From Pseudomonadota bacterium (lineage in GTDB: Bacteria; Myxococcota_A; UBA9160; SZUA-336), in the NCBI GenBank assembly GCA_003247575.1, contig QJZC01000011.1, positions 87,874-151,873 of the forward strand: a stretch of DNA of 64,000 bases. Direction: 5' to 3'. Both the position numbers and the translations under genes were made by a program. This document shows, one piece after another, positions 5,056 to 58,869 of the stretch (positions are counted from its first letter, which is position 1; every line of letters begins with the position of its first letter). The notes under the pieces were generated by a model that saw only the letters and a program-made list of their open reading frames with translations, was not told the origin of the DNA and did not search any database.

Positions 5056-7551
5056 GTGCGTGTGAGAGCTCCTTCAGGTATCCGGAAGCAGGCGAGAGTG
5101 CGCGGAGCGTTCGTCGTCGCACTCTGCTCGGTCGCGTGCGTGATCAGTGGGCCCGCTGGCCTCACATTCGCTGACGAGCCCAGCAACCGTGTACGCGTGG
5201 AGGACGAGAAGACAGCGGCACCGGGGCGAGTTCGTCCTGCTCCATCCAACGAGGGATTGGAGTCGATCACGGTGACGGCTCGCAAGCGGCCCGAGAGCGT
5301 CGATCGGGTTCCCGTGTCGATCTCGGTCCTGACCGACCAGGATCTGGCGGAGCGAACGGTGCGTCGAACCGCAGATCTCGACGCTCCCAATCTCGAGATC
5401 GCAAACACGATTGGTTTCGCAAATAGTGCGCGCGTCGCGCTGCGAGGCGTGGGGCAGTTCGACGTCGCGCCCACGACGGACCCGGGAGTCGGCATCTACT
5501 TCGATGGAGTGTACCTGGCTCGGGCACAGTCGGGGCTGCTCGCGCTCGCAGACCTGCAGAGGGTAGAAGTGGTTCGCGGCCCGCAGGGAACGGTGTTCGG
5601 AAAGAACACCATCGGGGGCGCGATCAACTTGATCACCGCCAAGCCCGAGTTCGACTTCGGTGGAAGAGCCGTGTTGCGCTATGGAGATTTCGATGAGATC
5701 GAGACCCGTCTCGCGCTCAACGTTCCGCTTGTCTCCGAACGTGCTGCTGTGCGCCTGAGCCTCGCGACTGCGACCCACGATGGCTATCAGAAGAACGTCG
5801 GCGGCGGCGGTGACGGAGACGACGAGAAGCTTCTCAGTGGGCGGATTCAGCTGCGGCTCGTGCCGAGAGCAAACGTCGAAGTGCTCGTCGCGGCCGACCT
5901 CGCGATCGAGGACAAGGAGCCTCAGCCAGCCACATGCATTCCCGTGACGGGCATCGGAGCCCCATCGACGCTCCTCGGAACGATCGATTTTTTCAACAGT
6001 CTCTTCGTTCCTGGGGGGTCGCTGAATGCGCCCCGCTTCGCAGCGCAGTGTGCGCAACGGGCTCGGCACGAGGAGCGCCGACGCTTTCGTTCGGACATCC
6101 CATTCACGAAGGACGATCAGACGTCATTCGGCGGCTCGGTCACCATCCTTTGGGATCTCGACGACCGTAGCACGCTGACTTCGATCTCCTCGAGCCGGGG
6201 TTTTCGGACGCGGGCAGGGGTCGATCTGGATGGGACCGAGTTTCCGCTCACGGTGGCGACGAGCCCTGACTCACTCGAACAGGATCAGATGAGCCAGGAG
6301 TTCCAGTTTGCATCGAGTACTCTGAGTGGACGTCTGCGCTACCTGCTTGGCTTGTACGGTTTTCGTGAGAAGGTAGCCAACTCGTCGTTGGGGCCGGACG
6401 GACCCGGCGTGTCGATCGCGACGCTGAGCGATCCCTCCTCGATTCAGGGCTTCGAGCTGCGCCCCTTCGCGCTGGTGCGAAACAAGTTTCGCACGGGAAG
6501 TCTGAGCTACGCGGCGTTCGGTCAGGTGACCTTCGACGTCTCGCCCACGCTCGAGGCGACTGTAGGGTTGCGCTTCTCGCACGAGCGAAAGCGATTCTTT
6601 CGGCGGGGTGTCGTCACTCGCTCGGGGGTCTCGCTCTCCTTGTTCGATCCGGTCGCGGCCGCGAGCCTCGATGGCCTCGCCGCGGAGCTCGTTCCGGCTC
6701 CAGTCGGGACGCTGATCGCGAGTGTGGATCGTGCGAAGCGATTCAGCGACTTCACTCCTTCCGCGAGTCTCACCTATAGCTTGAGCGATGACCTGCTCGC
6801 CTACCTGAGCTTCAGCACCGGATTCAAGAGCGGGGGCTTCGATGGCCGCGAGGTCAACGATGCTCCCGAGGTCGATCCCGAGCACCTGACGACCTACGAG
6901 ATCGGCTTCAAGGGCGATGCCCTGGATGGGCGTCTGCGCTTCAGCGCGGCTGCCTTCTACAGCGTCTATCGCGACGTGCAGCTCACGGTAACGACTGGGA
7001 ACGTTGCAAACCCGACCGATGTGCTGAATGCCGGGAGAGCGATCATCCGCGGCGGAGAGGTGGAGCTCGCGGTGCTGCCTCTGGAAAACTTACGGCTCGT
7101 TGGCGCGCTCGGTGTGCTCAGTACGAAGTACGATCGGTTTTCCGATCGCATCGTGGATACGAGCGGGCCCGCGCCCGTCGTGATCCCGGTCGATCGCGAC
7201 AACCTCGACCTTCCCTTTTCGCCAAACTACACCTTGAGTCTGTCGGCCCTCTACTCGGTCCCGACTGAATGGGGGACCCTACGCATGGGTGCGGAGTGGC
7301 AGCACAAGGGCGCGCAGTCGCTCGACGTGCTCAATACGGAGCAGCTCAGGCAGGGAAAGCGCGGCGAGCTCAGTGTGCGCATCGGAGTTGCGTCGAGAGA
7401 CGAGCGGGTCGAAGTCTCGCTGTACGGGCGCAACCTGCTCGACCGGGACTATCAAGTGAGCGGTTTCGAGCAGACGTCTGCGAATGGCTTCGTAGGCCGC
7501 TTTCAGGGGCCTCCGCGTAGCTATGGGGTCGAGCTCCAGGTTCGCTTCTGA
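5056..7551 (+). CDS. TonB-dependent receptor (TBDR-1)
   Basis: 831 aa. GTG start 7 nt after AGGAGG, signal peptide, plug region (ITVTARKRPESVDRVPVSISVL...RVEVVRGPQGTVFGKNTIGGAINLI), a long beta-barrel, and C-terminal ...YGVELQVRF ending in Phe. Confidence 0.9.
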   Translation: MRVRAPSGIRKQARVRGAFVVALCSVACVISGPAGLTFADEPSNRVRVEDEKTAAPGRVRPAPSNEGLESITVTARKRPESVDRVPVSISVLTDQDLAERTVRRTADLDAPNLEIANTIGFANSARVALRGVGQFDVAPTTDPGVGIYFDGVYLARAQSGLLALADLQRVEVVRGPQGTVFGKNTIGGAINLITAKPEFDFGGRAVLRYGDFDEIETRLALNVPLVSERAAVRLSLATATHDGYQKNVGGGGDGDDEKLLSGRIQLRLVPRANVEVLVAADLAIEDKEPQPATCIPVTGIGAPSTLLGTIDFFNSLFVPGGSLNAPRFAAQCAQRARHEERRRFRSDIPFTKDDQTSFGGSVTILWDLDDRSTLTSISSSRGFRTRAGVDLDGTEFPLTVATSPDSLEQDQMSQEFQFASSTLSGRLRYLLGLYGFREKVANSSLGPDGPGVSIATLSDPSSIQGFELRPFALVRNKFRTGSLSYAAFGQVTFDVSPTLEATVGLRFSHERKRFFRRGVVTRSGVSLSLFDPVAAASLDGLAAELVPAPVGTLIASVDRAKRFSDFTPSASLTYSLSDDLLAYLSFSTGFKSGGFDGREVNDAPEVDPEHLTTYEIGFKGDALDGRLRFSAAAFYSVYRDVQLTVTTGNVANPTDVLNAGRAIIRGGEVELAVLPLENLRLVGALGVLSTKYDRFSDRIVDTSGPAPVVIPVDRDNLDLPFSPNYTLSLSALYSVPTEWGTLRMGAEWQHKGAQSLDVLNTEQLRQGKRGELSVRIGVASRDERVEVSLYGRNLLDRDYQVSGFEQTSANGFVGRFQGPPRSYGVELQVRF

Positions 7552-18797: not shown

Positions 18798-19269
18798 CGC
18801 GCGACGCTCCTCGAGTTCGACTGGACCTGATCGCGATGCATGAGCCCGACTCACGTGGGGTGCTTTCGCAGAGTACGCGCTTGGCGGCGACCTGGGGGCT
18901 CATATCACGGGCGGTGTTGGAAGTCGGAATAGTGGCTCAATTGGCCGATTCACTCGTCCCAATAAGGCATTTTTCGATCGGGCACACGTGATTCCGGCTA
19001 GCTTCTCGCGCGACCGGTCGATCGAAACTGTCTCGGGAGCATCACCAACGGACCTCGCACGAGAGTGTCAGGCAGGAAGACAGGGTGCAGCCGAAGGAGC
19101 GGATCTTCGACCGTAAATAGGAATAACCGAATTTTCATTTTCCATCGTATAGCGACATAACATAGTGTTGAACGATGAGTTGTGAGGTTGCCCTCGGAGA
19201 CGGGCCTCCGAGCGCTGCCTGATTCGAGCATCACTCGCTCGGAGAACCGAACCGAGAGGAGACGGTGGC

Positions 19270-21987
19270 GTGCGGCGGTGGAACTTCGGATGGATTGGTG
19301 GGTTGGCACTCAGCGTGGCTTGGGTCGGTACGTCGCTGGCGGATGAAGCAAGCTCGGAGGCGGTCGAGGCCGCTCAGGTAGATTCTACGGCGGCTGCGGA
19401 TGATGCGGAGCCAGAGCGCGATGTCCGCGAGGTGGAGCGGCTCCCAGAGGATTCGATCGAAGAGATTCGGATCACGGGGCGTCGCCGCGACGAGACGATC
19501 CAGCAAGCGCCGGTCTCGGTCACCGCATTCGATGGTCTCGACTTGGAGGATCTCGAGGTCACCGACGTCAAAGAGCTCGCACGTTTCGTACCGAATCTCC
19601 AGCTCGATGAAGCCGCTGCGACGCAGAATGCGGCTCGCGTATTCCTGCGGGGCATCGGGAACGACGACCCGATCATCACCGACGAAGGCGGGGTCGGCAT
19701 TACGGTAGACGACGTCTTCCTGCCGCGCGCAGCCGGTACTCTCCTATCCATCTCCGACGTCGAGCGCATCGAGGTGCTCGCGGGTCCCCAGGCCACCCTC
19801 TACGGAAAGAACACGGTGGGCGGGCTGGTCCGCTACCTGACCAAGAAGCCGGAGTGGGACTTCAACGGGCGGGCTTCGCTGCGCGTCGGGAATTTCGATC
19901 AGGTGACGAGCCGCTTCATGCTGAACGTCCCACTGATCTCGGATCGGCTCGCGATGCGGCTGAATGTCGGCGCCAACTACAACGAAGGGCTCTTCGACAA
20001 CAAGGGCCCCGGACGAGATCGGACACTGCAGTCCCGCGGGCAGCAGGCTCAAGTCCAGCTGCGTCTTCAAGCCAGCGAGACCACCGAGGTCTTGCTCAAG
20101 GGCTACTACACGAACAGCCCCAATTCGGGCTTCGTGGCAAAGTGCAAGCTGACGGCTGGACTCGCGCTCAACAGGGTCGACGGGCGTCTCTTCGGAACCA
20201 ACGCGACCGGACCCGGGACACGCGGTGACTTCGCCGAGGAGTGTGCACGCGATCGCGCGCTCGATTCCGACGAGTTCAGGAGTGATGCCTCGACGGAAGA
20301 CGAGCTGCAGACGACGGGGACCTCGCTGCACGTGAGCTACGAGTCCTCGCCGTCGTTCGCCTTCCGATCCATCACGGCCTGGAATCGCAACGAGACCAGC
20401 AGCCGCTTCGACTTCGATGCGACCCGGCTCCCCATCTCGCAATCCCTGGACACGGACAAGAACGAGTCGATCCAGGACTCCATAAGCCAAGAGTTCAACT
20501 TCTCTGGTCTGGCGATGGACGGTCGCCTGAACTGGGTCGGTGGGTTCTTCGGGCTCGTCGAGAAGAACCAGGACAGCGAGCGACAGACCTCGGACCTGCC
20601 GACCTTCCTCGACCCCGAGGAATTCCGTTTCGCCGACCTCGCGAACGCGCGCGTAGTTGGGTCGGACGCTGCGATCGGGGCGATCGGAACGACCGACATC
20701 GGACTGAGGGCGCTCGAACCGGGCCTGCTCGAGGCCACCGGCGCGATCGAGGTGGCGCCCGGAATCTTCCTACCTGGAGCACCGCTGGCCTTCGAGGAGC
20801 TCCCCCTGCGTCTAACGAATGGGGCGGGCGACTGCATTGCCGGAACGGACCAGACCGTTCGGTTCCTCGCCGACTTCAGCGATCTGGTGATGGACTCGCC
20901 TGTGGACCTGAGTGCAGTCCCCGTGACGGCTCCGAGTTGTCGGCGCGAGTTCTCGAGCATTCAAACGGAGGGGTTCCTCAAGTCGAACGTGACGAGCTAT
21001 GCGGCCTATGGCCAGGTGGGCTTCGACATCGCGCCCGGATTGACGTTCGAGGCTGGAGCGCGTTACACGCACGAGCGCAAGCGCGTGGCCCGTTTCGAGC
21101 GCGTCCTCGACTCCAGCATTCCTCTGGTGCGCGAGCCGGCGACGATTGCGCGCGGCTTCGCGACCAGCACCTTCGAGTTTTCCGAGCGCTTCGGGCGCTT
21201 CTCGCCTTCCGCCAGCCTGCGCTACCAGCCGACCGAGGATCTCAATCTGTATGCGTTGTGGGGGCGCGGCTTCAAGAGTGGCGGCTTCAATGGGCGTGGA
21301 GTCGGCGATGCGAGCGAGCTGATCAGCTACGGGCCCGAGAAGGTCACCAGCTACGAGGTCGGCTTCAAGTCGCGCTGGTTCCAGCGTAGACTGACCCTCA
21401 ATGGCTCGCTGTTCAGCACGAACTACGACGACATTCAGCTGGTGAACATCCAGATCAATCAGACCTCGGGACGCATCATCGTTGTGACCGACAACGCCGG
21501 CAAGGCGCGCATCAACGGAGCCGAGCTGAATCTCGTCGCCTTGCCGCCGATCGATGGTCTGACGATTCGCGCCAATGGCGGCATCACCGTGGGGCGCTAC
21601 ACGAAGGTCAAGCCAAGCCGCGATGGACTGCTGCAGCTGGTCAATCCGAACGGTCGCCTGACGGGAACGCCAACTTACACGGGCAGTGTTTCGGTGACGT
21701 ACCGCGTTCCGCTCGGAAGCCTCGGGGATCTGACCAGCACGTTCAGCTGGTCGCATCAGGGGAAGAAGGCGAACAATCCCCAGAACACAGAGTTCTCGAA
21801 CAAGGTGGGCCTCCTGAGTGGCCGTGTCGCCTTGGAGCTGGCGGATGGAAAGACGCGAATCGCGGCCTTCGGAAGCAATATCCTGGATCGCGAGTACGTA
21901 GCCAACTCACTGGATATCGCGCGGCAGACGCTGCAATTCTTCGGTCCCCCCCGGCAGTTCGGAATCGAGCTCATCCGGGAGTTCTGA
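19270..21987 (+). CDS. TonB-dependent receptor (TBDR-2)
   Basis: 905 aa. GTG start after GAGGAGA, signal peptide ending SLADEA, plug (IRITGRRRDETIQQAPVSVTAF...RIEVLAGPQATLYGKNTVGGLVRYLT), and terminal ...FGIELIREF. Confidence 0.9.
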   Translation: MRRWNFGWIGGLALSVAWVGTSLADEASSEAVEAAQVDSTAAADDAEPERDVREVERLPEDSIEEIRITGRRRDETIQQAPVSVTAFDGLDLEDLEVTDVKELARFVPNLQLDEAAATQNAARVFLRGIGNDDPIITDEGGVGITVDDVFLPRAAGTLLSISDVERIEVLAGPQATLYGKNTVGGLVRYLTKKPEWDFNGRASLRVGNFDQVTSRFMLNVPLISDRLAMRLNVGANYNEGLFDNKGPGRDRTLQSRGQQAQVQLRLQASETTEVLLKGYYTNSPNSGFVAKCKLTAGLALNRVDGRLFGTNATGPGTRGDFAEECARDRALDSDEFRSDASTEDELQTTGTSLHVSYESSPSFAFRSITAWNRNETSSRFDFDATRLPISQSLDTDKNESIQDSISQEFNFSGLAMDGRLNWVGGFFGLVEKNQDSERQTSDLPTFLDPEEFRFADLANARVVGSDAAIGAIGTTDIGLRALEPGLLEATGAIEVAPGIFLPGAPLAFEELPLRLTNGAGDCIAGTDQTVRFLADFSDLVMDSPVDLSAVPVTAPSCRREFSSIQTEGFLKSNVTSYAAYGQVGFDIAPGLTFEAGARYTHERKRVARFERVLDSSIPLVREPATIARGFATSTFEFSERFGRFSPSASLRYQPTEDLNLYALWGRGFKSGGFNGRGVGDASELISYGPEKVTSYEVGFKSRWFQRRLTLNGSLFSTNYDDIQLVNIQINQTSGRIIVVTDNAGKARINGAELNLVALPPIDGLTIRANGGITVGRYTKVKPSRDGLLQLVNPNGRLTGTPTYTGSVSVTYRVPLGSLGDLTSTFSWSHQGKKANNPQNTEFSNKVGLLSGRVALELADGKTRIAAFGSNILDREYVANSLDIARQTLQFFGPPRQFGIELIREF

Positions 21988-22030
21988 ACGCCGAGCGTCC
22001 GGCGAAGGGCGCGGATGGGAACCTTGCTCC

Positions 22031-22067
22031 AGGGCCGGGGCTGACCGATACGGTCGGCCTCGGCCCT
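22031..22067 (+). terminator. Imperfect 17-bp hairpin after TBDR-2 (possible terminator)
   Basis: AGGGCCGGGGCTGACCG-ata-CGGTCGGCCTCGGCCCT with two mismatches, followed by tcgtcttgtt. Lies 44 nt after the stop. Confidence 0.4.
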
Positions 22068-22297
22068 TCGTCTTGTTGCACTTGCCGTCCTGTCCCCAAC
22101 TGGGGGCATTCAGCGAGCCGGAGTCGCGGGACACTCCTCTGGCGAAGCGAGTCTTCAAGTGCGGGGCGGCGCTCAAAAGCGGGCAAGTTTCATGATCCTC
22201 AGGAGTCATGCCCGCAGAAAGTGCCCTTCCGCAGAGATCAACTGCTGGGCGCTGGTGCGCGCTTCGCCGCGTCAGCGTCGCGAGAGGTCTGAGTACT

Positions 22298-25261
22298 ATG
22301 CGATGGAGGAAGTCCCTCACGCTGTTCGTCGCCGCGGTGCTGCCAGCACTGGCATGTGATGTCCAACAGCCACAGACGCCGCAGGCGGACGTCCGAGATG
22401 GATTCATCAACTTCGAGACGATTCCGACGCGGGCCGTCGCGATTTCGGACGATGGCGCGCGGCTCTTTGCCCTGAATGTGCCCGACGGGCGTTTGTCGAT
22501 CTTCGACGTCACCCCCACGGGCCCGGCGCTTCGCGCCGAGGTTCCCGTCGGGATGGACCCGGTTGCGCTCGCGATCCGAAACGAGAACGAAGTCTGGGTA
22601 GTCAATCACCTGTCGGATAGCGTGAGCATCGTCGACGTCGGAGCCCAGCCCCCACGCGTCTCGCGAACCCTGCTCGTAGGGGACGAGCCGCGTGACATCG
22701 TGTTTGCGGGTCCTGGCCGCAGCCGCGCGTTCATTTCTGCTGCGCGCCGAGGCCAGAACCACCCTGACGACACCGTCAACGAAACTCAGGTTCCGGGAGT
22801 AGGAAGAGCCGACGTTTGGGTGTTCGATAGCAACGATCTCGGTCCGAGTCTGGGCGGCGTTCCGCTCACGATCGTGACGCTCTTTGCCGACAAGCCAGGG
22901 GCGCTGGCCGCGACCCCGGATGGCAGCCAGGTGTACGTGTCGATCTTCACGTCGGGCAATGGATCGACGGTCATCGGCGACTCGGCCATCTGCGGGCCAA
23001 CGGGCCCTGCGGGAACAGGCCAGTTCTCCGATCAGGAAGATGGTCCGTGCGCACTCGAGAACGGTGCGACCGCACCCGGTGGGGTGCCTGCACCGAACCG
23101 TGGGTTGGCCGATGGCACGCGGAATCCGCGAACGGGCATCATCGCCACCTTGGACCGCTCGACGGGAGCCTGGCTCGATGTGCTGGGCCGGGATCATTCC
23201 GCCGCGGTACCCTTCGAGTTTCCGGACAACGACGTCTTCCGCATCGACGCGGACGCGAACCCGCCGGTCGAGATTGGGGTCTACCAGGCGGTGAGTACCC
23301 TGAACTTCAACCTCGCCTTCCATCCGACCAATGGGCGGGCGTATCTCGCGACGATCGATGCGATCAACCGCAATCGCTTCCTCTCGGCTCCAGGCGGCGT
23401 TGGCGGCAGTCCGCCACTCGGACCGAATCCACAGGGGCCAGGTGCGCTGACGGCGGATCCCATCACCGGCGAGACACTCCGGGGTCATCTCTACGAGTCG
23501 AAGATCGCGATCCTCGAGCCGAACGGCGACTTCCGCACTCGCCATCTGAACAAGCACATCGACTACGAGGCCTTCCCTACCCCGCCCGGGACCCTGGAGC
23601 GCAGTGTCGCGAATCCGCAGGGAGTGGTCTTCTCGGAAGACGGCGAGACCCTGTTCGTAGCCGCGTTGGGCTCGAATCAGATCGTGCCGTTCTCTCGGGT
23701 CGAGCTCGAGAACGATACCTTCGAGCCCGATGCTTCGACGCACATCCAGCTGATGGGAGACGGCGGGCCGAGCGACATGGTGCTCGACCCATCGGACGCG
23801 AACCGCATGTTCGTGTACAAGCGCTTCGACAATGCGATCGCGGTCGTCGACATCGCAGCGCGTCGTGAGATCGGTAGCGTGCCCTTGTTCAACCCGGAGC
23901 CCGATGCGGTCCGGGTGGGTCGCAAGTTCTTCTACGATGCGACGCGCACTTCGGACAATGGAGAGGCCAACTGCAACGTCTGCCATCCTGCTGCAGACAA
24001 GGACGACCTGGCCTGGAACATCGCGATCCCCTTCCTGCCTAGCCAGCCGAATCCAAACACGTTCGTTGCGGGGCTGACCTTGGGTATCAACGGCGGTATG
24101 CCCACGGTCGAGTTCAATCCGCTCAAGGGACCGATGACCGTGTTGACCTTGCGCGGTATCAAGGACTCGGGGCCCCTGCTCTGGCGCGGAGACATGACCA
24201 ACGCCGTCGATCCACTCGACGAACGTACCAACTTCCTGACCTTTGGAATCGCCTTCGACGCTCTGAACGGGCGAACTGGAGGAATCCCGGAGGCCGACTT
24301 GCAAGTCTTTGCCAACTGGGCCATGACCCTCGTGCCACCGCCGAATCCCCATCGACCGCTCGACAACAGCTTGACTCCGTCCCAGGAGGCGGGTCGCGGG
24401 ATCTTCACCAACCAGGGCACGGGCGCGACCGGTCCGACGGACGTGATCTTCCAGTGCAACAGCTGCCATGCTCTGAATCGCGGGCTCGGCCAGTTCGGCG
24501 CGGGAGGACAGATGTCGCTGGAGGGGGAGACCCAGTTCTTCAAGGTGCCGCAGCTGCGCACTGTGTATGACAAGGTCGGGATGTTCGGGCACACCTTTGG
24601 CGACAACGGCGATGCCCGCAACCTCGGTGGACCGCGTGTGGATGTAGGGCCGCAGATTCGAACGACTGGAACCCTGCACGATGGCTCTGCGGCGGGAGCG
24701 GACGAGTTCCTGACGGCGGGAGTCTTTCAGCTCACCGCAGACGAGCTACGCCAGGTCGTGGATTTCACCTATGCATTCGAGAGCAATGTCGCTCCCATCG
24801 TGGGACAACAGGTGACTCTACGGCCAGAGAGCGGTCCCGACGTTGCTGCGCGCATCGAGTTGATGGAGCAGCGGGCGGGAGTCCGCTTCATCATGTCGGG
24901 GCCGGTGGAAGCCACGGAGTGTGATCTCGTCGTCAAGGGCGTGATCGGCGGTCAGCCGCGTGGCTTCCTCTTCGACCCGAGCTCGGAGACCTATCTCGCT
25001 GACACCGGAGAGTCGATTCCCAGCGGTGCGCTCAAGGATCTCGCGAACGTCGACGGTCAGGCGCTGACGTTCACCTGCGTCTATCCAGGGGGAGGCGTGC
25101 GCGTCGGCATCGATCGGGATCTCGACGGCATTCTGGATGGAGGTGCGCCGGCGCCGGCCGGTGGAGGTCCCGTGCAGCCTCCCGTCGGAGGGGCCCCCGG
25201 GGGAACGGGCAATCCCCTGCTGGACTTTCTGGGCAACCTGTTCGCGGGGTTGTTCGGATAG
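22298..25261 (+). CDS. Lipoprotein: beta-propeller domain fused to a di-haem CCP-like domain
   Basis: MRWRKSLTLFVAAVLPALAC is a lipobox. N-terminal half has YVTN/YncE-like blade repeats (LFALNVPDGRLSIFDV; VWVVNHLSDSVSIVDV; LFVAALGSNQIVPF; MFVYKRFDNAIAVVDI). CxxCH at 23972-23986 (CNVCH) and 24455-24469 (CNSCH). Near the end: a DRDLDGILDGG Ca-binding-like motif, a Gly/Pro linker and a hydrophobic tail LLDFLGNLFAGLFG. Confidence 0.8.
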   Translation: MRWRKSLTLFVAAVLPALACDVQQPQTPQADVRDGFINFETIPTRAVAISDDGARLFALNVPDGRLSIFDVTPTGPALRAEVPVGMDPVALAIRNENEVWVVNHLSDSVSIVDVGAQPPRVSRTLLVGDEPRDIVFAGPGRSRAFISAARRGQNHPDDTVNETQVPGVGRADVWVFDSNDLGPSLGGVPLTIVTLFADKPGALAATPDGSQVYVSIFTSGNGSTVIGDSAICGPTGPAGTGQFSDQEDGPCALENGATAPGGVPAPNRGLADGTRNPRTGIIATLDRSTGAWLDVLGRDHSAAVPFEFPDNDVFRIDADANPPVEIGVYQAVSTLNFNLAFHPTNGRAYLATIDAINRNRFLSAPGGVGGSPPLGPNPQGPGALTADPITGETLRGHLYESKIAILEPNGDFRTRHLNKHIDYEAFPTPPGTLERSVANPQGVVFSEDGETLFVAALGSNQIVPFSRVELENDTFEPDASTHIQLMGDGGPSDMVLDPSDANRMFVYKRFDNAIAVVDIAARREIGSVPLFNPEPDAVRVGRKFFYDATRTSDNGEANCNVCHPAADKDDLAWNIAIPFLPSQPNPNTFVAGLTLGINGGMPTVEFNPLKGPMTVLTLRGIKDSGPLLWRGDMTNAVDPLDERTNFLTFGIAFDALNGRTGGIPEADLQVFANWAMTLVPPPNPHRPLDNSLTPSQEAGRGIFTNQGTGATGPTDVIFQCNSCHALNRGLGQFGAGGQMSLEGETQFFKVPQLRTVYDKVGMFGHTFGDNGDARNLGGPRVDVGPQIRTTGTLHDGSAAGADEFLTAGVFQLTADELRQVVDFTYAFESNVAPIVGQQVTLRPESGPDVAARIELMEQRAGVRFIMSGPVEATECDLVVKGVIGGQPRGFLFDPSSETYLADTGESIPSGALKDLANVDGQALTFTCVYPGGGVRVGIDRDLDGILDGGAPAPAGGGPVQPPVGGAPGGTGNPLLDFLGNLFAGLFG

Positions 25262-25328
25262 TCGAAGCGGTGCCTGGCTGGAGGCCGAGGAGCTCCGCCG
25301 CCTCAACCTCGGCACTCTGAGGTATGCG

Positions 25329-28300
25329 GTGGGTCCCGTGCGGGTGCACGGGGCCCACCGCAGAGGCTCCGCACAGAGCCTGGCTCGAAGTGCTGCTTGG
25401 CTCAGGCTGCTCGTGTCTGTCGCCGATGGGTGGGTGGGAGCATTCGTGTTCGAGCCCGAAGGATTTGCCATCAAGGAGCGGATTCGCTCCGAGAGCCATC
25501 GGGACGTGTATCTCGCGTGCCGGGAGTGCGATCAAGCCGAGGCCGTCGTTTCGGTCTATTGGCGCCATGAGAGCTCCGATGCCCGTGCTGAGCGCAGGAG
25601 CGAGGAGCAGGCCGTCGCAGCCTGTGCCGGGCCCCACGTGCCGGAGATTCTGGGGACGGGTGGCGAGCGCGAGGCGGAGTGGATCGCACTCCGTCGAGAG
25701 CCGAGTCTGCCTCTCTCTCAGTGGGTGCGGTCCAGTCCTCCCTCCATAGCGGCATTCCTGAACGTCGCCGAGCAGCTGGCAAGTGTGCTCGTTCGCGTTC
25801 ACGCTGCGCGTCTGATCCATCGCGAGATCGCCCCAGAGAATCTCGCGATCGACCCGGACACGCTCGAGACGAGCTGGTTCGACTTCTCTCGGGCGCGCTC
25901 CCTCGGTGCGGAGCGTGAAGGCTTTGTGCGTGCAACGGACAGAAGGGATCCACGCTCCGCGTATATCTCGCCGGAGCAGAGTGGTCGGATGAATCGGGGG
26001 GTCGATTCCCGTAGCGACCTCTACTCGCTCGGTGCCACGCTCTACTGGGTTCTGCTCGGTCAGCGCACCTTTCCCGTCGAGGATGGACTCGCGTTCATTC
26101 ATGCGCTCCTGGCTCGTACGCCCGAGCGACCGTCATGCGTACGGGAAGATGTGCCCGAGCCGGTGTCGTGCATGCTGCTCAAGCTGCTTAGCAAGGAGCC
26201 GGCAGACCGCTACCAATCTGCCCGCTCGCTCTGCGAGGACCTCGGAAGCCTACGCGAGGAGCTCTACAGGGAAGGCGCTCTCAGGCATCACTTTCAGCTC
26301 GCAAGGGGTGATGCACCGCTCGAGCCACACTTTCCACCGAAGCTGTACGCTCGGGAGAACGAAGCCGAGATGCTGCGCGCCCAGTGGACCGCGACGCGCC
26401 GCGGAGAGACGCGATTGGTGCTGATCTCCGGTGAGTCCGGCACTGGGAAGTCTGCGCTGGTCGGCGAGCTGGGTCCGACGATCGCGGCTTGCGGAGGTTA
26501 TCTCGCCGTAGGCAAGTTCGATACCTCCCATGACCAACCCTATGTAGCGTGGAGTGCGGCGATCGGCTCCTACGCGCAGCAGCTGCTGACCGGCACGGAT
26601 GCTGAGGTCGATCGCGCGAAACGTGAGATCCTCGAGGGAACGGGCAGTCTGGCACGCATCTTGACCGATCTCGTTCCGGATCTCCGGTTCGTGCTCGGAG
26701 AGCTTCCCCCTGTTCCCGCTCTCGGATCGACCGAAACGCGCTCGCGGATCACGCTGGCACTCAAGCGGCTGCTGCTTGCGTGTGCGACACCGGCGCACCC
26801 ATTCGTTCTCTTCCTGGACGATTTGCAATGGGGTGACGCAGCAAGTCTGAGCGTGCTCGACGACCTGCTCGAGGAGGCCGCCGACGCGGCATTGCTGATC
26901 GTTGCCGCCTATCGGTCCGACGCGGCCGCGACGAATCATCGTCTCTCCGGGGTGCTCGAGCGCATCTCGAGAAGTCCGAGGCACGGCTGTACGCTGCATC
27001 TCGGCGCGTTGCCCGAAGATGCGATCGCGCGCATGCTCGCGGATGCCTTCGGCTCCAGCGAGGCCGACGTCTGCCTGCTGGCTCGCCAGATAGGTCGAAA
27101 GACTGCCGGGCTTCCGCTCCTGATCCGGCAAATGGTGAGTCACATGCATTGTCGTGGACTGATCGCGTATCGCGATGGAGCGTGGCGAGCGGATACGGGG
27201 GCGGCGTCTACGGTCGAGCTTCCTCAGGGTGCAATCGTCCTGCTCGTGGCGAAGCTGCGGCAGCTCGATACAGACGCCCGCCAGTTGATCTCGCTGGCAA
27301 GCTGCATCGGGAATACTTTCGACCGTGGCTTGCTGGCGGAGCTCGCGCCACTTCCGCAAGGAAGGATCGAGCGTGCTCTGCATGGACTCATCGACGCAGG
27401 CCTGGTCGAAACCAGCACGGCGGGCCTGCGATTTGCGCACGATCGAATTCGGGAGTCGGCCCAGCTACTGCTCTCCAGCGAGGAGCGACATCGTCTGCAC
27501 TACGAAATCGCCATGCTGCTCAACCGGCGACCCGAGCCGGAGCGCGAGGTGCGCTTGCTGGAGATCGCAGATCACCTGAGCACCGGCGTGCAAGGCATTC
27601 CGGCGTCGGGGCTCCCAGATGCGATCCAGCTGCTGGCGGAGGCTGGTCGGAGCGCACTGCGCGCGGGTGCACCGGCCACGGCAGATCGGCACCTCACGAC
27701 CGCGGGAGCACTGTTACTCGAAGCCTCATCGGGGGAGGGACCCAATCTGCTCGACGACACGTTCAGCCGTGAGCTCCTCTTCTCGCGGGTCGAAGCTGCC
27801 CTCCTCTGTTCTTCCTTGGATCGCGCTTTGCAGTTGGTCCAGTCTCTGTTGGAGCAGCCGCTCACGTTGATGGATCGGGCACGGGCGCAGATGCGCTGTA
27901 CACAGATCCTTGCCCTTACGCGGCCGGTGGCGAGCTCGGCGAGCCACCTTCTGGATGCACTCGCCGAGCTGGGGATGAAGTGGCCGATGCGCCCGTCACG
28001 TCTGCGCACCGTCTTGGCCGTTCTTCGTTTGAGCATCGAGCTGCGCGTCCGCGGCCTGGACGCAGTGTCGAGAGCTTGCGAAGTGCCGGATCCACGTCGG
28101 ATGGCCGCGCTTCTACTCCTCTCGCAGGGTGCGGCCACACTCGGTCGTCTGGATGTGAACCTCGCCACGTTGGTCTCGTGCTGGGCGAACACGATGAACC
28201 TTCGCTTCGGTCACACCGGTAGACCTCTGTATACACTCGCCACGTTCGGTGTGCAGCTGTTCTTGGTGCTCGGCGACGTCGCCATGGCACAGCGAATCTT

Positions 28301-29243
28301 CACACTGGTGCGAGCAGGCTTGCACGGGGATCTCGTGTATGGCCCGCGAATGATCGCCTTGATCGAGACCACGGTCTCTCCATTTCTGGCCCCGCGGCGC
28401 AATGCAGCTGCATCTGCCAGGGCGACGATCGAGGCGATGCTCGAGGTCGGCGACCTAGAGTTCGCAAACTACACGCGCTTTCTGGTTGCTCTGTACCTGG
28501 CGCTTTCGGGCGAGCGGATTGGGACGATCGATGCCCAGCTCCATTCCGTCACGGCGCTCATACGCAAAGCGGCGCATCGGTATGCCGAGCCCGAGCTGTG
28601 CCATCGACTCTACCGCCTGCTCGCCGCGGATGGGCCGCCGGCCGAGCTCTCGGCGGTGCTCGGAAGGATCGATGACGCTCTCGCCGATGCGTCCGAGTCC
28701 TCTGTGCTCTTCGTGAGTAGCATGCGCCTGATGGTCCTCTGTGTGTTCGGGCACTTCGAGCTGGCGGTCGCCGAGTCGGAACGCGTTGCGCCGCAGCTCT
28801 TCCAGGCCACCCCGTACGTGCATATCGTCGACCACTGCTTCTTCAGCGGCCTGGCCGCCGGAGTGCTCGCTGACGCCGCAGTTGGCTCCGATCGCCGAAG
28901 GCTGCGACGGATGTTGCGTTTGCAGCTCGCGCGCATGCGTCGCTGGGCGCGTCGGGGGCCGGACTTCGAGCACATGGAGTGCTTCCTGAGTGCGGAAGTC
29001 ATGCGCGTGCGCAGACGCTTCGACAGTGCCCTCAAGCTGTATATGCGCTCCAGCGAGCTCGCCTTCGCATGTGGCTACGTTCACCACGCCGGGCTGGCCA
29101 GCGAGCGGCGTGCGAGTCTGCTGGCCGAGCTGCGGAGACGTCCGGAGGCCAGCGTGGCGCTGCATGAGGCGCGGCGAGCGTACGAGAGCTGGGGATGCGC
29201 TGCCAAGCTTCGGCAGATCGACGTCCAGGACGCCATGCGCTGA
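25329..29243 (+). CDS. STAND-type protein: degenerate Ser/Thr kinase-like domain + AAA (AAA_16-like) ATPase + helical/TPR-like C-terminal region
   Basis: Kinase fold markers HREIAPENLAI (25818...), DFS, YISPEQ, DLYSLGATLYWVL. Walker A GESGTGKS (26430-26453). Walker B FVLFLDDLQWGD. About 800 aa of helical repeats follow. Track ORF starts at 25137 inside the upstream gene; the true start is probably a GTG near 25329-25344. Confidence 0.8.
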   Translation: MGPVRVHGAHRRGSAQSLARSAAWLRLLVSVADGWVGAFVFEPEGFAIKERIRSESHRDVYLACRECDQAEAVVSVYWRHESSDARAERRSEEQAVAACAGPHVPEILGTGGEREAEWIALRREPSLPLSQWVRSSPPSIAAFLNVAEQLASVLVRVHAARLIHREIAPENLAIDPDTLETSWFDFSRARSLGAEREGFVRATDRRDPRSAYISPEQSGRMNRGVDSRSDLYSLGATLYWVLLGQRTFPVEDGLAFIHALLARTPERPSCVREDVPEPVSCMLLKLLSKEPADRYQSARSLCEDLGSLREELYREGALRHHFQLARGDAPLEPHFPPKLYARENEAEMLRAQWTATRRGETRLVLISGESGTGKSALVGELGPTIAACGGYLAVGKFDTSHDQPYVAWSAAIGSYAQQLLTGTDAEVDRAKREILEGTGSLARILTDLVPDLRFVLGELPPVPALGSTETRSRITLALKRLLLACATPAHPFVLFLDDLQWGDAASLSVLDDLLEEAADAALLIVAAYRSDAAATNHRLSGVLERISRSPRHGCTLHLGALPEDAIARMLADAFGSSEADVCLLARQIGRKTAGLPLLIRQMVSHMHCRGLIAYRDGAWRADTGAASTVELPQGAIVLLVAKLRQLDTDARQLISLASCIGNTFDRGLLAELAPLPQGRIERALHGLIDAGLVETSTAGLRFAHDRIRESAQLLLSSEERHRLHYEIAMLLNRRPEPEREVRLLEIADHLSTGVQGIPASGLPDAIQLLAEAGRSALRAGAPATADRHLTTAGALLLEASSGEGPNLLDDTFSRELLFSRVEAALLCSSLDRALQLVQSLLEQPLTLMDRARAQMRCTQILALTRPVASSASHLLDALAELGMKWPMRPSRLRTVLAVLRLSIELRVRGLDAVSRACEVPDPRRMAALLLLSQGAATLGRLDVNLATLVSCWANTMNLRFGHTGRPLYTLATFGVQLFLVLGDVAMAQRIFTLVRAGLHGDLVYGPRMIALIETTVSPFLAPRRNAAASARATIEAMLEVGDLEFANYTRFLVALYLALSGERIGTIDAQLHSVTALIRKAAHRYAEPELCHRLYRLLAADGPPAELSAVLGRIDDALADASESSVLFVSSMRLMVLCVFGHFELAVAESERVAPQLFQATPYVHIVDHCFFSGLAAGVLADAAVGSDRRRLRRMLRLQLARMRRWARRGPDFEHMECFLSAEVMRVRRRFDSALKLYMRSSELAFACGYVHHAGLASERRASLLAELRRRPEASVALHEARRAYESWGCAAKLRQIDVQDAMR

Positions 29244-56381: not shown

Positions 56382-56736
56382 CGTACGGCGCTTCGGTGCA
56401 GTCTGCCTGATTCTTGAGCTCCTATCAGAAGCTGGTGGAAACGAGCCCAGATCGGACAGGACTGGCCCGCAAAGATTTCCATACATCTGTTTGTGTAGCG
56501 TGGAAGGGGCAAGTTTACGCTCGCTGTAGCAAGTTGAGGTGAAAAGCGAATTCCTGGTGCTCTGGATGCGACTACACTGTCGTTCCGTTATGTGCAACGG
56601 AGCGGGACTTACGCTGCATCGACACGCTTCGCCGTGTGCGAATAGACTAGAGGTACGTCTAGACGGTATTTCAACTCTCTATGAGACGAACCCTCACACT
56701 GTGAAGTGTTCGCATGGCGGGAGGCAGAGGGATCGA

Positions 56737-58767: not shown

Positions 58768-58786
58768 GGTTTCGTTCGCAAAGGAC

Positions 58787-58821
58787 GAGGGGCATCGAGT
58801 CGTCGCGACTCGATGCCCCTC
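58787..58821. terminator. Perfect 16-bp hairpin between convergent paralogue C and TBDR-3 (probable bidirectional terminator)
   Basis: GAGGGGCATCGAGTCG-tcg-CGACTCGATGCCCCTC, 20 nt after the stop at 58767. Confidence 0.6.
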
Positions 58822-58869
58822 TGAGAGTTTGGGCCCGCCGGAGTGCTCCGACGGGTGGTCTGTGTAGGC

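What the first reader, a model, noticed from the sequence alone, without database searches (positions are those of the whole stretch)
19270..25261. Second module: TBDR-2 followed by a lipoprotein fusing a YVTN-like beta-propeller to a di-haem CCP-like domain
Seen in the sequence:
- TBDR-2 is followed after ~310 nt (with a hairpin at 22031-22067) by a 987-aa predicted lipoprotein.
- Its N-terminal ~550 aa carry repeated blade-like strands.
- Its C-terminal part has CNVCH (23972) and CNSCH (24455), plus LKGPMTVLTLRGIKDSGPLLWRGD and FFKVPQLRTVYDKVGMFG. These occupy positions where bCCPs have their conserved xxPxLRN segments.
- It ends in DRDLDGILDGG, then a Gly/Pro linker, then LLDFLGNLFAGLFG with no basic tail. 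This could be a sorting or anchoring signal of unknown type.
Inference: same logic as the first module (TBDR plus extracytoplasmic di-haem enzyme), with a propeller as the putative substrate-binding part.
Basis: partly seen in the sequence, partly recalled or inferred. Interest (0 to 1): 0.6.

Follow-up and report, generated by a model that had tools for sequence, protein, structure and literature searches.

The report
Propeller–di-haem enzyme, not TBDR-linked
The gene encodes an exported enzyme-like protein, a beta-propeller fused to a two-haem peroxidase-type domain, from a large unstudied family whose nearest solved relatives are two hydrazine synthase subunits; its usual neighbour is a large ATPase-type signalling or regulator protein (a "STAND" protein), not the outer-membrane transporter next to it here.

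Summary
Profile and fold searches confirm a YVTN seven-bladed propeller (residues ~35-529) and a divergent di-haem domain of the bCCP/MauG superfamily (~530-832). A conserved small domain with a DxDxDG loop follows, then a Gly/Pro linker and a short hydrophobic helix.

The protein belongs to a large, conserved, unnamed family: 926 clusters at 50% identity with E<=1e-30, spread over Binatia, Myxococcota, Proteobacteria and Acidobacteriota. Its closest solved relatives are hydrazine synthase beta (propeller) and gamma (haem domain). It lacks the gamma-specific third haem cysteine and has no alpha-subunit partner.

The "TBDR plus enzyme module" reading is not supported. None of 10 close-relative loci has a TBDR. 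Only 2 of 84 other loci searched have one within 10 kb. A 17-bp terminator-like hairpin separates the two genes.

In the close clade the recurrent neighbour is a STAND (AAA_16) signalling protein, found in 8 of 11 loci, as it is here directly downstream. The C-terminal helix matches no known sorting signal. It sits where other family members carry MYXO-CTERM-like ends or long extensions, so an anchoring role remains open. The chemistry is unknown; peroxide-type redox catalysis is the best guess.

The parts
19270..21987 (+). TBDR-2, a 905-aa TonB-dependent receptor; neighbour only, not a conserved partner
   Evidence: Plug 1.2e-15 and TonB_dep_Rec_b-barrel 7.7e-37. No TBDR lies next to the homologues in other loci.
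22031..22067 (+). Intrinsic-terminator-like hairpin 44 nt after the TBDR-2 stop
   Evidence: 17-bp stem, 13 G-C pairs, 3-nt loop, tail TCGTCTTGTT. Folding energy -36.8 kcal/mol, z = -4.76.
22298..25261 (+). The 987-aa propeller / di-haem protein gene (coordinates include the stop codon)
   Evidence: Translation. Start supported by homologue N-termini. Family of 926 50%-identity clusters at E<=1e-30.
22298..22357 (+). Signal peptide ending in a lipobox-like ALAC (Cys20, followed by Asp)
   Evidence: MRWRKSLTLFVAAVLPALAC-D. About 16 of 70 relatives keep a Cys here, mostly followed by D, E or G.
22400..23884 (+). Seven-bladed YVTN-type beta-propeller (residues ~35-529) with long inserts and an invariant Cys232/Cys251 pair
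   Evidence: TIGR02276 35.8 bits against cut-off 27.85. Family profile hits 1L0Q at 1.2e-19 and HZS-beta at 1.9e-10. Foldseek top hit is 5c2v_B, target-normalised TM 0.75. Strand pattern in the AF2 model.
23885..24793 (+). Divergent bCCP/MauG-superfamily di-haem domain (residues ~530-832)
   Evidence: Family profile hits HZS-gamma at 2.2e-8, MbnH 6E1C at 1.8e-5 and CcpA at 8e-3. Foldseek top 38 hits are all bCCP, MauG or HZS-gamma. Pfam CCP_MauG is only sub-threshold (22.8 against 25.6 bits).
23972..23986 (+). Haem-1 attachment motif CNVCH (C559, C562, H563)
   Evidence: Invariant in 70 and 62 aligned relatives.
24455..24469 (+). Haem-2 attachment motif CNSCH (C720, C723, H724)
   Evidence: Invariant in 70 and 62 aligned relatives.
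24794..25144 (+). Conserved C-terminal alpha/beta domain (residues ~833-949) with invariant C875, near-invariant C927 and a terminal DxDxDG-type loop (IDRDLDGILDGG)
   Evidence: AF2 pLDDT above 90 over most of it. Invariant V835, G836, Q837, Q838, R852, C875, T924, R935. In longer relatives the loop continues into thrombospondin-type-3-like repeats. No PDB fold match covers this domain.
25145..25210 (+). Gly/Pro/Ala-rich linker (residues 950-971)
   Evidence: Sequence. pLDDT below 50 for residues 958-969. Length and sequence vary among close relatives.
25211..25258 (+). C-terminal short hydrophobic amphipathic helix NPLLDFLGNLFAGLFG, no basic end
   Evidence: AF2 helix at 973-986. The helix core scored (PLLDFLGNLFAGLFG) has mean hydrophobicity 0.62 and hydrophobic moment 0.34. 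Conserved in the close clade. No hit to known sorting-signal HMMs. Found only on this family among 8661 ORF ends.
25329..29243 (+). Downstream STAND protein (kinase-like domain plus AAA_16), the recurrent neighbour in the close clade; its true start is uncertain (25137, 25329 or about 25434)
   Evidence: AAA_16 3.3e-31 and Pkinase 1.3e-11. It is the only AAA_16 protein in the 64-kb window. A STAND neighbour occurs in 8 of 11 close-clade loci, binomial P = 3e-4.

Best explanation
**What it is.** The ORF at 22298-25261 encodes an exported, probably lipid-anchored envelope protein. It belongs to a large, strongly conserved and functionally uncharacterised family.

**Architecture.**
- A seven-bladed YVTN beta-propeller is packed as one rigid unit against a divergent di-haem domain of the bacterial cytochrome c peroxidase / MauG superfamily.
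- A small conserved domain with a DxDxDG loop follows.
- In this clade only, a flexible Gly/Pro linker and a short hydrophobic helix complete the protein.
[quoted passage not shown] It is not a hydrazine synthase.

**Most likely mechanism (inferred).**
- Two c-type haems are attached in the periplasm.
- Haem 1, in the N-terminal half of the haem domain, is the catalytic site. It reacts with a small oxidant such as H2O2.
- Haem 2 relays electrons to or from an outside partner.
- The propeller caps or shapes the access route or substrate site, as HZS-beta does for HZS-gamma.

**Transcription and partners.** The gene is transcribed independently of TBDR-2. In this lineage it is coupled to the adjacent STAND (AAA_16) signalling protein. 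This suggests an inducible enzyme with a specific small-molecule trigger.

**Shown:** domain identities, family size, lack of a conserved TBDR link, and the STAND association.

**Inferred:** haem roles, peroxide chemistry, regulation by the STAND protein, and the lipid anchor.
For: **Domains.**
- YVTN repeat above its NCBIfam cut-off.
- Full-length AF2 model: pLDDT 90.7, pTM 0.90.
- Foldseek top hit is HZS-beta 5c2v_B (E = 4e-14, target-normalised TM 0.75).
- C-terminal profile hits HZS-gamma at 2.2e-8, MbnH at 1.8e-5 and bCCPs at 8e-3 to 2e-2, with the FKVPxLRN and HDGS motifs aligned.
- The 38 best fold matches of the C-terminal model are all bCCP, MauG or HZS-gamma.
- 47 of 62 family members hit the NCBIfam hydrazine_gamma model and 33 of 62 the MbnH-family model, all below cut-off.

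**Family.**
- 5180 hits among 8000 scored candidates.
- 926 / 2472 / 4367 50%-identity clusters at E<=1e-30 / 1e-10 / 1e-3.
- 566 loci in GTDB species genomes across many phyla, including cultured Sorangium, Polyangium and Rhizobacter.
- Both CxxCH motifs, W573, W629, K749, Y757 and many propeller residues are invariant.

**Export.** Members with a complete N-terminus generally start with a signal peptide.

**Independence from the TBDR.**
- Terminator-like hairpin between the genes.
- No conserved TBDR neighbour.

**STAND link.**
- A Pkinase-AAA_16 or Trans_reg_C-AAA_16 protein lies within about 2 kb in 8 of 11 close-clade loci.
- All 6 STAND homologues in 171 kb of flanking DNA lie within 2.5 kb of the gene, binomial P = 3e-4.
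- Two of the three loci without a STAND protein have a TetR regulator next door.
Against: - No biochemical data exist for any family member.
- Pfam CCP_MauG is below its gathering score and covers only 30 residues.
- Fold matches of the haem domain are modest (target-normalised TM 0.33-0.47, E about 1e-4, model pLDDT 77).
- The distal ligands of the haems could not be assigned. No Met, Tyr or His is conserved 14-16 residues after the HDG motif, where (from my memory of bCCP and MauG numbering) the Met or Tyr ligand lies. A near-invariant Phe810 is there instead.
- I could not show by alignment that invariant W629 corresponds to the inter-haem Trp of bCCP/MauG.
- The STAND association holds only in the close clade. 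It drops to about 8 of the 84 other loci searched within 10 kb. Several close-clade loci come from one metagenome, so they are not fully independent.
- Within this window all three TBDRs sit near di-haem genes. A genome-specific link to TBDR-2 therefore remains possible.
Confidence: 0.6

Rival explanations
1. First reader's model. TBDR-2 imports a substrate across the outer membrane, and the propeller / di-haem lipoprotein processes it in the periplasm. The two genes form one functional module, like the other TBDR / di-haem pairs in this window.
For: - The genes are adjacent on the same strand.
- All three TBDRs of the window (5056-7551, 19270-21987, 58870-61359) lie within one or two genes of a di-haem cytochrome gene.
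- An earlier follow-up on module 1 also noted this pairing as a peculiarity of this genome.
Against: - A 310-nt gap with a 17-bp G+C-rich hairpin and a T-rich tail lies right after the TBDR stop.
- None of the 10 other close-clade loci has a TBDR.
- Only 2 of 84 other loci searched have a TBDR within 10 kb, none adjacent.
- No TBDR family appears in the lists returned by the census of 142 nearest neighbours.
- The three 'modules' differ in gene order and orientation, and their di-haem proteins are unrelated families.
Confidence: 0.13
2. The protein is a functional analogue of the hydrazine synthase beta-gamma module. Haem 1 reduces a nitrogen oxide (for example NO to hydroxylamine) or otherwise handles hydroxylamine-like small molecules, here as a stand-alone enzyme in a non-anammox bacterium.
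For: - HZS-beta and HZS-gamma are the best solved relatives of the two halves, by sequence profile (1.9e-10 and 2.2e-8).
- By fold, HZS-beta is the top match of the full-length model, and HZS-gamma ranks second for the haem domain, behind the peroxidase YhjA.
- 47 of 62 family members hit NCBIfam hydrazine_gamma and 17 of 62 hit the beta-gamma fusion model.
- Fused beta-gamma homologues outside anammox bacteria have been reported (PMC12758564).
Against: - All these hits are far below the NCBIfam cut-offs.
- There is no cysteine between the two CxxCH motifs, so the third haem-Cys link of gamma-Cys165 is impossible.
- No alpha-subunit-like gene or any conserved neighbour is present.
- A Trp is invariant in the (H/F/L)WRGD motif; whether this is the position where HZS-gamma has His144 could not be mapped here.
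- The published study concluded that key HZS residues are not conserved in non-anammox homologues.
- The beta-gamma homologue rows I saw in that study's supplement were ~650 aa, not this ~1000-aa family.
Confidence: 0.07
3. It is a MauG/MbnH-like protein- or peptide-modifying oxidase. The propeller docks a specific protein or peptide substrate, and the di-haem unit oxidises it over a distance using H2O2 or O2.
For: - MbnH (6E1C) is the second-best sequence relative in the PDB (1.8e-5).
- 33 of 62 members hit the MbnH-family model.
- MauG structures are among the fold matches.
- Tyr757 is invariant, and MauG uses a Tyr haem ligand (the MauG fact is in PMC6405878).
- Propellers often serve as docking platforms.
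Against: - No conserved neighbouring gene could encode a substrate protein or peptide. MauG and MbnH sit in operons with their substrates (established knowledge).
- The 40-48% identity across phyla suggests one universal substrate rather than lineage-specific peptides.
Confidence: 0.15
4. It is mainly a surface-tethered electron-transfer or binding protein rather than an enzyme. The C-terminal appendages anchor it to the envelope, and the haems only shuttle electrons.
For: Family members carry varied C-terminal anchoring modules at the same position: MYXO-CTERM-like ends in 9 of 70, long TSP3-type or other extensions in 25 of 70, and a hydrophobic helix in 21 of 70.
Against: - The haem domain keeps peroxidase-superfamily motifs (FKVPxLRN, HDG, WRGD) and many invariant polar residues in both domains. 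This is typical of a catalytic site.
- 12 of 70 members have no C-terminal appendage at all.
Confidence: 0.08

Closest known systems
Hydrazine synthase beta and gamma subunits (Kuenenia stuttgartiensis, PDB 5C2V chains B and C), fused as one beta-gamma chain in Ca. Scalindua (NCBIfam NF052342)
   Same: - Same two-part architecture: a seven-bladed YVTN-type propeller followed by a bCCP-like di-haem domain.
- Best solved relatives of both halves by sequence profile. By fold, HZS-beta is the top match and HZS-gamma ranks second for the haem domain.
- Periplasm-type export.
   Different: - Similarity is remote (14-16% identity in the fold alignments) and far below the NCBIfam cut-offs.
- There is no third haem-binding Cys and no alpha subunit gene.
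- An extra ~115-aa C-terminal domain and tail are present.
- The propeller carries large inserts.
- The family occurs in many non-anammox phyla.
Bacterial di-haem cytochrome c peroxidases (CcpA/BccP, YhjA) and MauG / MbnH (Pfam PF03150 CCP_MauG)
   Same: - Two CxxCH motifs about 160 residues apart.
- FKVPxLRN and (F/L)HDGS motifs aligned by HMMER.
- Fold matches are exclusively to this superfamily.
- An invariant Trp in a WRGD motif resembles the FWDGR inter-haem Trp (my inference).
   Different: - It fails the PF03150 gathering score (22.8 against 25.6 bits). Only about 12 of the 120 best relatives carry a PF03150 flag, so PF03150-based surveys such as the BthA network (PMC6405878) mostly miss the family.
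- It has long inserts and an N-terminal propeller fusion.
- No conserved Met or Tyr lies at the usual distal-ligand spacing.
- It has no operon partner.
Cytochrome cd1 nitrite reductase and quinohaemoprotein dehydrogenases (propeller plus cytochrome c in one chain)
   Same: A periplasmic redox enzyme that joins a beta-propeller to c-type haem. cd1 structures appear among the fold hits through the propeller (E about 1e-10).
   Different: Those enzymes have eight-bladed propellers holding haem d1 or PQQ and a single class-I cytochrome c domain. This protein has a seven-bladed YVTN propeller and a bCCP-type di-haem domain.
C-terminal sorting signals: MYXO-CTERM (TIGR03901), PEP-CTERM (TIGR02595), GlyGly-CTERM
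   Same: The tail sits at the same position, after the DxDxDG loop and a low-complexity linker, where other family members carry MYXO-CTERM-like or PEP-CTERM-like ends.
   Different: - It hits none of these HMMs.
- The helix is only ~14 residues long.
- It has no signature motif (no Cys, no PEP, no GlyGly).
- It has no basic cluster at the end.

Membership tests
YVTN beta-propeller repeat family (TIGR02276) | Repeat HMM score above the curated cut-off | tested here: met
   35.8 bits against cut-off 27.85, residues 96-136. The family profile hits the YVTN propeller 1L0Q at 1.2e-19.
YVTN beta-propeller repeat family (TIGR02276) | Seven-bladed propeller fold | tested here: met
   AF2 pLDDT above 90 across residues ~35-529, with about 30 strands. 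Foldseek top hits are 5c2v_B (target-normalised TM 0.75) and 1L0Q.
bCCP / MauG superfamily (Pfam PF03150) | Two CxxCH haem c attachment motifs in two cytochrome-like half-domains | tested here: met
   CNVCH (559-563) and CNSCH (720-724), invariant in the family.
bCCP / MauG superfamily (Pfam PF03150) | Pfam model score above the gathering threshold | tested here: not met
   22.8 bits against 25.6. Only residues 536-566 match model positions 2-31 of 149.
bCCP / MauG superfamily (Pfam PF03150) | Di-haem peroxidase fold | tested here: met
   The top 38 Foldseek PDB hits of the C-terminal model are all bCCP, MauG or HZS-gamma (E from 5e-5, probability about 1.0 for the best and 0.77 or more throughout). 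TM values are only 0.3-0.47 and the model pLDDT is 77.
bCCP / MauG superfamily (Pfam PF03150) | Inter-haem tryptophan | tested here: inconclusive
   W629 in the (H/F/L)WRGD motif is invariant.
bCCP / MauG superfamily (Pfam PF03150) | Met (bCCP) or Tyr (MauG) distal ligand of the second haem | tested here: inconclusive
   No conserved Met, Tyr or His lies 14-16 residues after H794-D-G; F810 is there instead. Y757 and M762 are conserved elsewhere. The spacing rule comes from my memory of bCCP and MauG numbering.
Hydrazine synthase gamma / beta-gamma (NF052341, NF052342) | HMM score above the curated cut-off | tested here: not met
   hydrazine_BC scores 23.9 bits against a cut-off of 1250, through the propeller only. 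hydrazine_beta scores 31.7 against 560. The window's own C-terminal part gives no hydrazine_gamma hit at E<=0.01.
Hydrazine synthase gamma / beta-gamma (NF052341, NF052342) | Third covalent haem link through a Cys (gamma-Cys165) after the first CxxCH | tested here: not met
   No cysteine occurs between residues 564 and 719. No conserved Cys is there in the family. The feature is described in PMC12758564.
Hydrazine synthase gamma / beta-gamma (NF052341, NF052342) | Co-located alpha-subunit gene | tested here: not met
   The neighbours here are a TBDR and a STAND protein. No conserved neighbour was found in the 85 loci clustered or among 142 nearest neighbours from the family loci.
Bacterial lipoprotein (signal peptidase II substrate) | Lipobox with invariant Cys at the end of the signal peptide | tested here: inconclusive
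   ALAC20 follows a basic n-region and a 14-residue h-region. Pro at -4 departs from the PROSITE-type pattern, and ALA|C also fits signal peptidase I. The Cys is conserved in about 16 of 70 relatives with varied -3/-1 residues. No dedicated predictor was available.
Known C-terminal sorting domains (PEP-CTERM, MYXO-CTERM, GlyGly-CTERM) | HMM match, and a tripartite signature motif / transmembrane helix / basic cluster | tested here: not met
   No such NCBIfam hit for this protein at E<=1 or for its C-terminal part at E<=0.01. The helix is ~14 residues long and the last 40 residues hold no Arg or Lys.
   - None of the 10 other close-clade loci has a TBDR.
- Only 2 of 84 other loci searched have one within 10 kb, none adjacent.
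- A terminator-like hairpin lies between the genes.
- Transcript data were not obtainable.

The most novel reading that the evidence does not exclude
This widespread, unnamed family may be a stand-alone relative of the hydrazine synthase beta-gamma module. It would perform a so-far undescribed small-molecule redox reaction (on peroxide, a nitrogen oxide or a hydroxylamine-type compound) at a propeller-capped haem. In this clade a dedicated STAND sensor next door would switch it on, and a new kind of C-terminal hydrophobic-helix anchor would hold it at the membrane, taking the place of MYXO-CTERM or PEP-CTERM in other members.
Probability: 0.1. Interest if true: 0.75.

Novelty: new variant of a known kind. 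Interest (0 to 1): 0.4.

Why it matters
This is a family of roughly a thousand 50%-identity clusters that keeps 40-48% identity across distant phyla. No member has been studied and it has no family name. Most members are invisible to the Pfam CCP_MauG model, so di-haem peroxidase surveys miss them.

It is the closest widely distributed relative, outside anammox bacteria, of the beta-gamma half of hydrazine synthase. That bears on how hydrazine synthase arose from ordinary periplasmic haem proteins.

Cultured carriers (Sorangium, Polyangium, Rhizobacter) make it experimentally tractable.

For annotation of this window, the practical point is that the gene should not be read as part of a TonB-dependent uptake operon. 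Its likely partner is the downstream STAND protein.

Tried and rejected
- **Transcript evidence.** No public sequencing run holds window 21000-24000, so co-transcription could not be tested.
- **Whole-genome search for the tail on other proteins.** Only the window and the loci fetched by that point (8661 ORF ends) could be scanned. The tail HMM hit only family members.
- **Metagenome scan for close relatives.** It gave 8 loci: four full-length matches at 37-40% identity and four short fragments cut off at contig ends.
- **Exact look-ups.** P0008 and P0009 were not on record. Cluster look-up gave no organism names for the close clade, so the host lineage stays unidentified.
- **Mapping invariant W629 onto the bCCP/MauG inter-haem Trp.** A single-sequence search and a 60-sequence sub-profile of residues 604-664 both found nothing in the PDB.
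- **Relation to the module-1 di-haem proteins.** hhalign probability 2%; only the CxxCH context aligns. Rejected as paralogues.
- **Any RNA element in 18800-25600.** Only a chance-level Rfam match (E = 0.09). No sigma-70-like promoter was found.
- **Conserved operon partner across the family.** The largest neighbour cluster covers 10 of 85 loci, and its example sequence looks like a generic ABC-type ATPase. The Pfam census peaks at 4 of 70. Rejected.
- **Literature.** No paper joins YVTN with CCP or MauG.

Full report
**1. Observation**

- The ORF at 19270-21987 (+) is a TonB-dependent receptor: Plug 1.2e-15, barrel 7.7e-37.
- A 310-nt gap follows. It holds a hairpin at 22031-22067 with a 17-bp stem, 13 G-C pairs and a 3-nt loop, followed by TCGTCTTGTT.
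- As RNA this hairpin folds at -36.8 kcal/mol, z = -4.76 against shuffles. It looks like an intrinsic terminator for TBDR-2.
- The next ORF is open from 22208. All close homologues begin at the equivalent of the ATG at 22298 (MRWRK...), which gives 987 aa.
- CNVCH and CNSCH start at nt 23972 and 24455.
- The protein ends in ...IDRDLDGILDGG, a 22-residue Gly/Pro/Ala linker, then NPLLDFLGNLFAGLFG.

**2. What the protein is**

Single-sequence searches are weak.
- Pfam gives only sub-threshold hits: CCP_MauG at 22.8 against 25.6 bits over 30 residues, and Lactonase propeller.
- NCBIfam gives the YVTN repeat above cut-off, plus faint hits to hydrazine synthase (HZS) beta and the beta-gamma fusion.
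- The only PDB sequence hit is HZS-beta at E = 0.0015.

The family is huge and well conserved.
- 5180 hits among the 8000 scored candidates, at 45-76% identity and mostly full length. They are named at best 'YVTN family beta-propeller protein'.
- An exhaustive HMMER scan of 1.84 billion representatives finds 926 / 2472 / 4367 clusters at E<=1e-30 / 1e-10 / 1e-3.
- 566 loci turn up in GTDB species genomes. They span Binatia, Myxococcota (including cultured Sorangium and Polyangium), Rhizobacter, Nevskia, Thiohalocapsa, Acidobacteriota and others.

Alignment-based searches are clear.
- A 70-sequence alignment shows both CxxCH motifs, W573, W629, K749, Y757, two Cys pairs (232/251 invariant; C875 invariant with C927 near-invariant) and many propeller residues conserved.
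- The full-length profile hits the YVTN propeller 1L0Q (1.2e-19), HZS-beta (1.9e-10), HZS-gamma (5.6e-5), MbnH 6E1C (1.4e-3) and Shewanella CcpA (6.9e-3).
- A profile of residues 530-987 hits HZS-gamma at 2.2e-8, MbnH at 1.8e-5 and bCCPs at about 1e-2. FKVPhLRN aligns with FKVPTLRN, and fLHDGS with YFHDGS.
- 47 of 62 family members hit NCBIfam hydrazine_gamma and 33 of 62 the MbnH family, all far below cut-off.

Structure prediction agrees.
- The full-length model has pLDDT 90.7 and pTM 0.90, so the domains pack as one unit. Its best PDB match is HZS-beta (target-normalised TM 0.75).
- The separately modelled C-terminal part (pLDDT 77) matches only bCCP, MauG and HZS-gamma structures in its top 38 hits: YhjA 5e-5, HZS-gamma 2.8e-4, CcpA, BccP, MauG.
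- The propeller and CCP-like assignments therefore both survive. The CCP-like assignment holds at superfamily level only.

Residues ~833-949 form a further conserved alpha/beta domain (invariant VGQQ, C875/C927). It has no PDB match and ends in a DxDxDG loop. In longer relatives this loop continues into thrombospondin-type-3-like repeats.

**3. Relation to hydrazine synthase**

- The architecture mirrors HZS beta plus gamma. These are fused in Ca. Scalindua.
- A 2025 study (PMC12758564) reported many fused beta-gamma homologues outside anammox bacteria. They lack the key HZS residues and keep a Trp where gamma has His144.
- The beta-gamma homologue rows I saw in that study's supplement were ~650 aa. 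I could not show that the ~1000-aa family studied here is among them.
- This protein has no cysteine between its two haem motifs, so it cannot form the third haem link of gamma-Cys165.
- It has no alpha-like neighbour. It is not a hydrazine synthase.

**4. The TBDR link**

I fetched 80 loci from species genomes and the context of 10 close-clade relatives at 55-76% identity.

- BLAST with both window TBDRs finds a TBDR within 10 kb in 2 of the 84 other loci held at that point (the 80 plus the first four close-clade loci). None is adjacent.
- All-against-all clustering of flanking ORFs finds no neighbour shared by more than 10 of 85 loci.
- A Pfam census of the 142 nearest flanking ORFs shows no TBDR family in the lists returned. 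No family appears more than 4 times.
- None of the 10 close-clade loci has a TBDR.
- With the terminator-like hairpin, this argues that TBDR-2 and the gene are separate units.
- Caveat: in this window all three TBDRs lie near some di-haem gene. An earlier follow-up called this pairing peculiar to this genome. The di-haem proteins involved belong to unrelated families, and the gene arrangements differ.

**5. The recurrent neighbour**

In the close clade a large STAND protein with an AAA_16 domain lies within about 2 kb in 8 of 11 loci.
- Pkinase-AAA_16 directly downstream on the same strand: this window and the P0025 locus.
- Pkinase-AAA_16 upstream: L093 and L097.
- Trans_reg_C-AAA_16-TPR adjacent: L002, L003, L094 and the P0020 locus.

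Supporting points:
- The window's protein and L093's are full-length homologues (38% over 1259 aa). The three Trans_reg_C forms for which DNA was held (L002, L003, L094) are homologous to each other.
- All six STAND homologues detectable in 171 kb of close-clade flanks lie within 2.5 kb of the gene. The binomial P is 3e-4. This is crude, and the loci are not fully independent.
- Two of the three loci without a STAND protein have a TetR regulator next door.
- No terminator-like site lies between the gene's stop (25261) and the STAND gene.
- Across the wider family the link fades to about 8 of 84 other loci.

I read this as lineage-specific coupling to a ligand-sensing regulator. That fits an inducible enzyme.

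**6. Ends of the protein**

N-terminus.
- Members with a complete N-terminus generally start with a signal peptide.
- About 16 of 70, including the window's clade, end it in a lipobox-like x-x-[AG]-C. This is often followed by Asp, which is the inner-membrane retention rule in E. coli (established knowledge; its validity here is untested).
- Most of the others have A-x-A sites.

C-terminus. After the conserved DxDxDG loop the family is very variable:

| C-terminal form | Members (of 70) |
|---|---|
| Stops at the loop | 12 |
| Low-complexity linker plus short hydrophobic helix, no basic end (this protein) | 21 |
| Transmembrane segment plus Arg cluster, MYXO-CTERM-like | 9 |
| Extension of 130-380 aa | 25 |
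| Cys-containing medium tail | 3 |

- NCBIfam recognises MYXO-CTERM, PEP-CTERM and TSP3-type repeats in some members, but nothing in this protein.
- The window's helix core (PLLDFLGNLFAGLFG) has mean hydrophobicity 0.62 and hydrophobic moment 0.34. AF2 predicts a helix at residues 973-986.
- An HMM of the clade's tails found it only on family members among 8661 ORF ends in the DNA at hand.
- The tail therefore occupies an 'anchor slot' but is not a known sorting signal. Whether it is a membrane-surface anchor or packs on the protein is open.

**7. Mechanism and verdict**

- Best reading (confidence about 0.6 overall; the architecture part is near certain): an exported, probably lipid-anchored redox enzyme. 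A propeller caps a bCCP/MauG-type di-haem unit. It acts on a small oxidant or substrate, is transcribed apart from TBDR-2, and is coupled to the adjacent STAND protein.
- The specific chemistry is inferred only from superfamily membership.
- The haem distal ligands could not be assigned. The family's usual Met-His before the invariant Trp (MHWRGD, His in 93% of distant members) is Leu-Leu in this protein.
- This is a divergent, unstudied variant of a known kind. It is moderately interesting for its size, its conservation and its kinship to the hydrazine synthase beta-gamma module.

Noticed in passing
window 25329-29243 (alternative starts at 25137 and about 25434): The downstream kinase-like / AAA_16 STAND gene is the only AAA_16 gene in the 64-kb window. 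No terminator-like site separates it from the propeller / di-haem gene. Its annotated start is uncertain, because the L093 homologue aligns only from residue 43 of the 25329 reading.
   Followed up: partly
L001 13147-16140 (- strand): A second family paralogue lies convergent to the first. It is split into a 902-aa ORF (P0011) and a 71-aa piece that carries the end of the last domain, a Pro/Ala linker and the tail NAFLRAFFRAIFGGFRM. This is either a frameshift or an assembly error.
   Followed up: partly
L001, L002, L094, L095, L096, L097 (JGI sample 3300027987): One metagenome holds at least eight family paralogues (P0006, P0010, P0011, P0023, P0038, P0041, P0042, P0043). Most have their own STAND or TetR regulator next door. 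This looks like a lineage-specific expansion of enzyme / regulator pairs.
   Followed up: partly
window residues 627-628 of the protein (nt 24176-24181): The Met-His that precedes the invariant Trp629 in 90-93% of distant family members (GPMHWRGD) is Leu-Leu here and Met-Phe in several close relatives. If that His is a haem ligand, the close clade has lost it.
   Followed up: no
L056 (record labelled Nitrosopumilus sp. MAG, CAXQPB010000037.1): A full-length family member (41% identity) sits on a contig binned to an archaeal ammonia oxidiser. This is either mis-binning or a horizontal transfer worth checking.
   Followed up: no
Family members P0058, P0060, P0063, P0067, P0120 and others (mostly Binatia): Many relatives carry a conserved ~200-aa extra C-terminal domain after a TSP3-like repeat. 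It ends in a Cys-containing motif (...SCRxxxxGxxVxCR) and matched no family in the scans run here.
   Followed up: no
window 42683-44464 (-): A further di-haem protein in the window is RoxA-like (PF21419, 1.3e-15). It is not next to a TBDR, so the window holds at least three unrelated kinds of di-haem protein.
   Followed up: partly
window 56539-61359: The third TBDR (58870-61359, - strand) is convergent with a 742-aa cytochrome c protein (56539-58767, + strand). This 'module' cannot be a single operon either.
   Followed up: partly
L094 1-5206: Upstream of one close relative lie a LanM-type lanthipeptide synthetase (DUF4135 plus LANC_like), three small ORFs and a Choice_anch_L protein. This is an unrelated biosynthetic cluster.
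   Followed up: no
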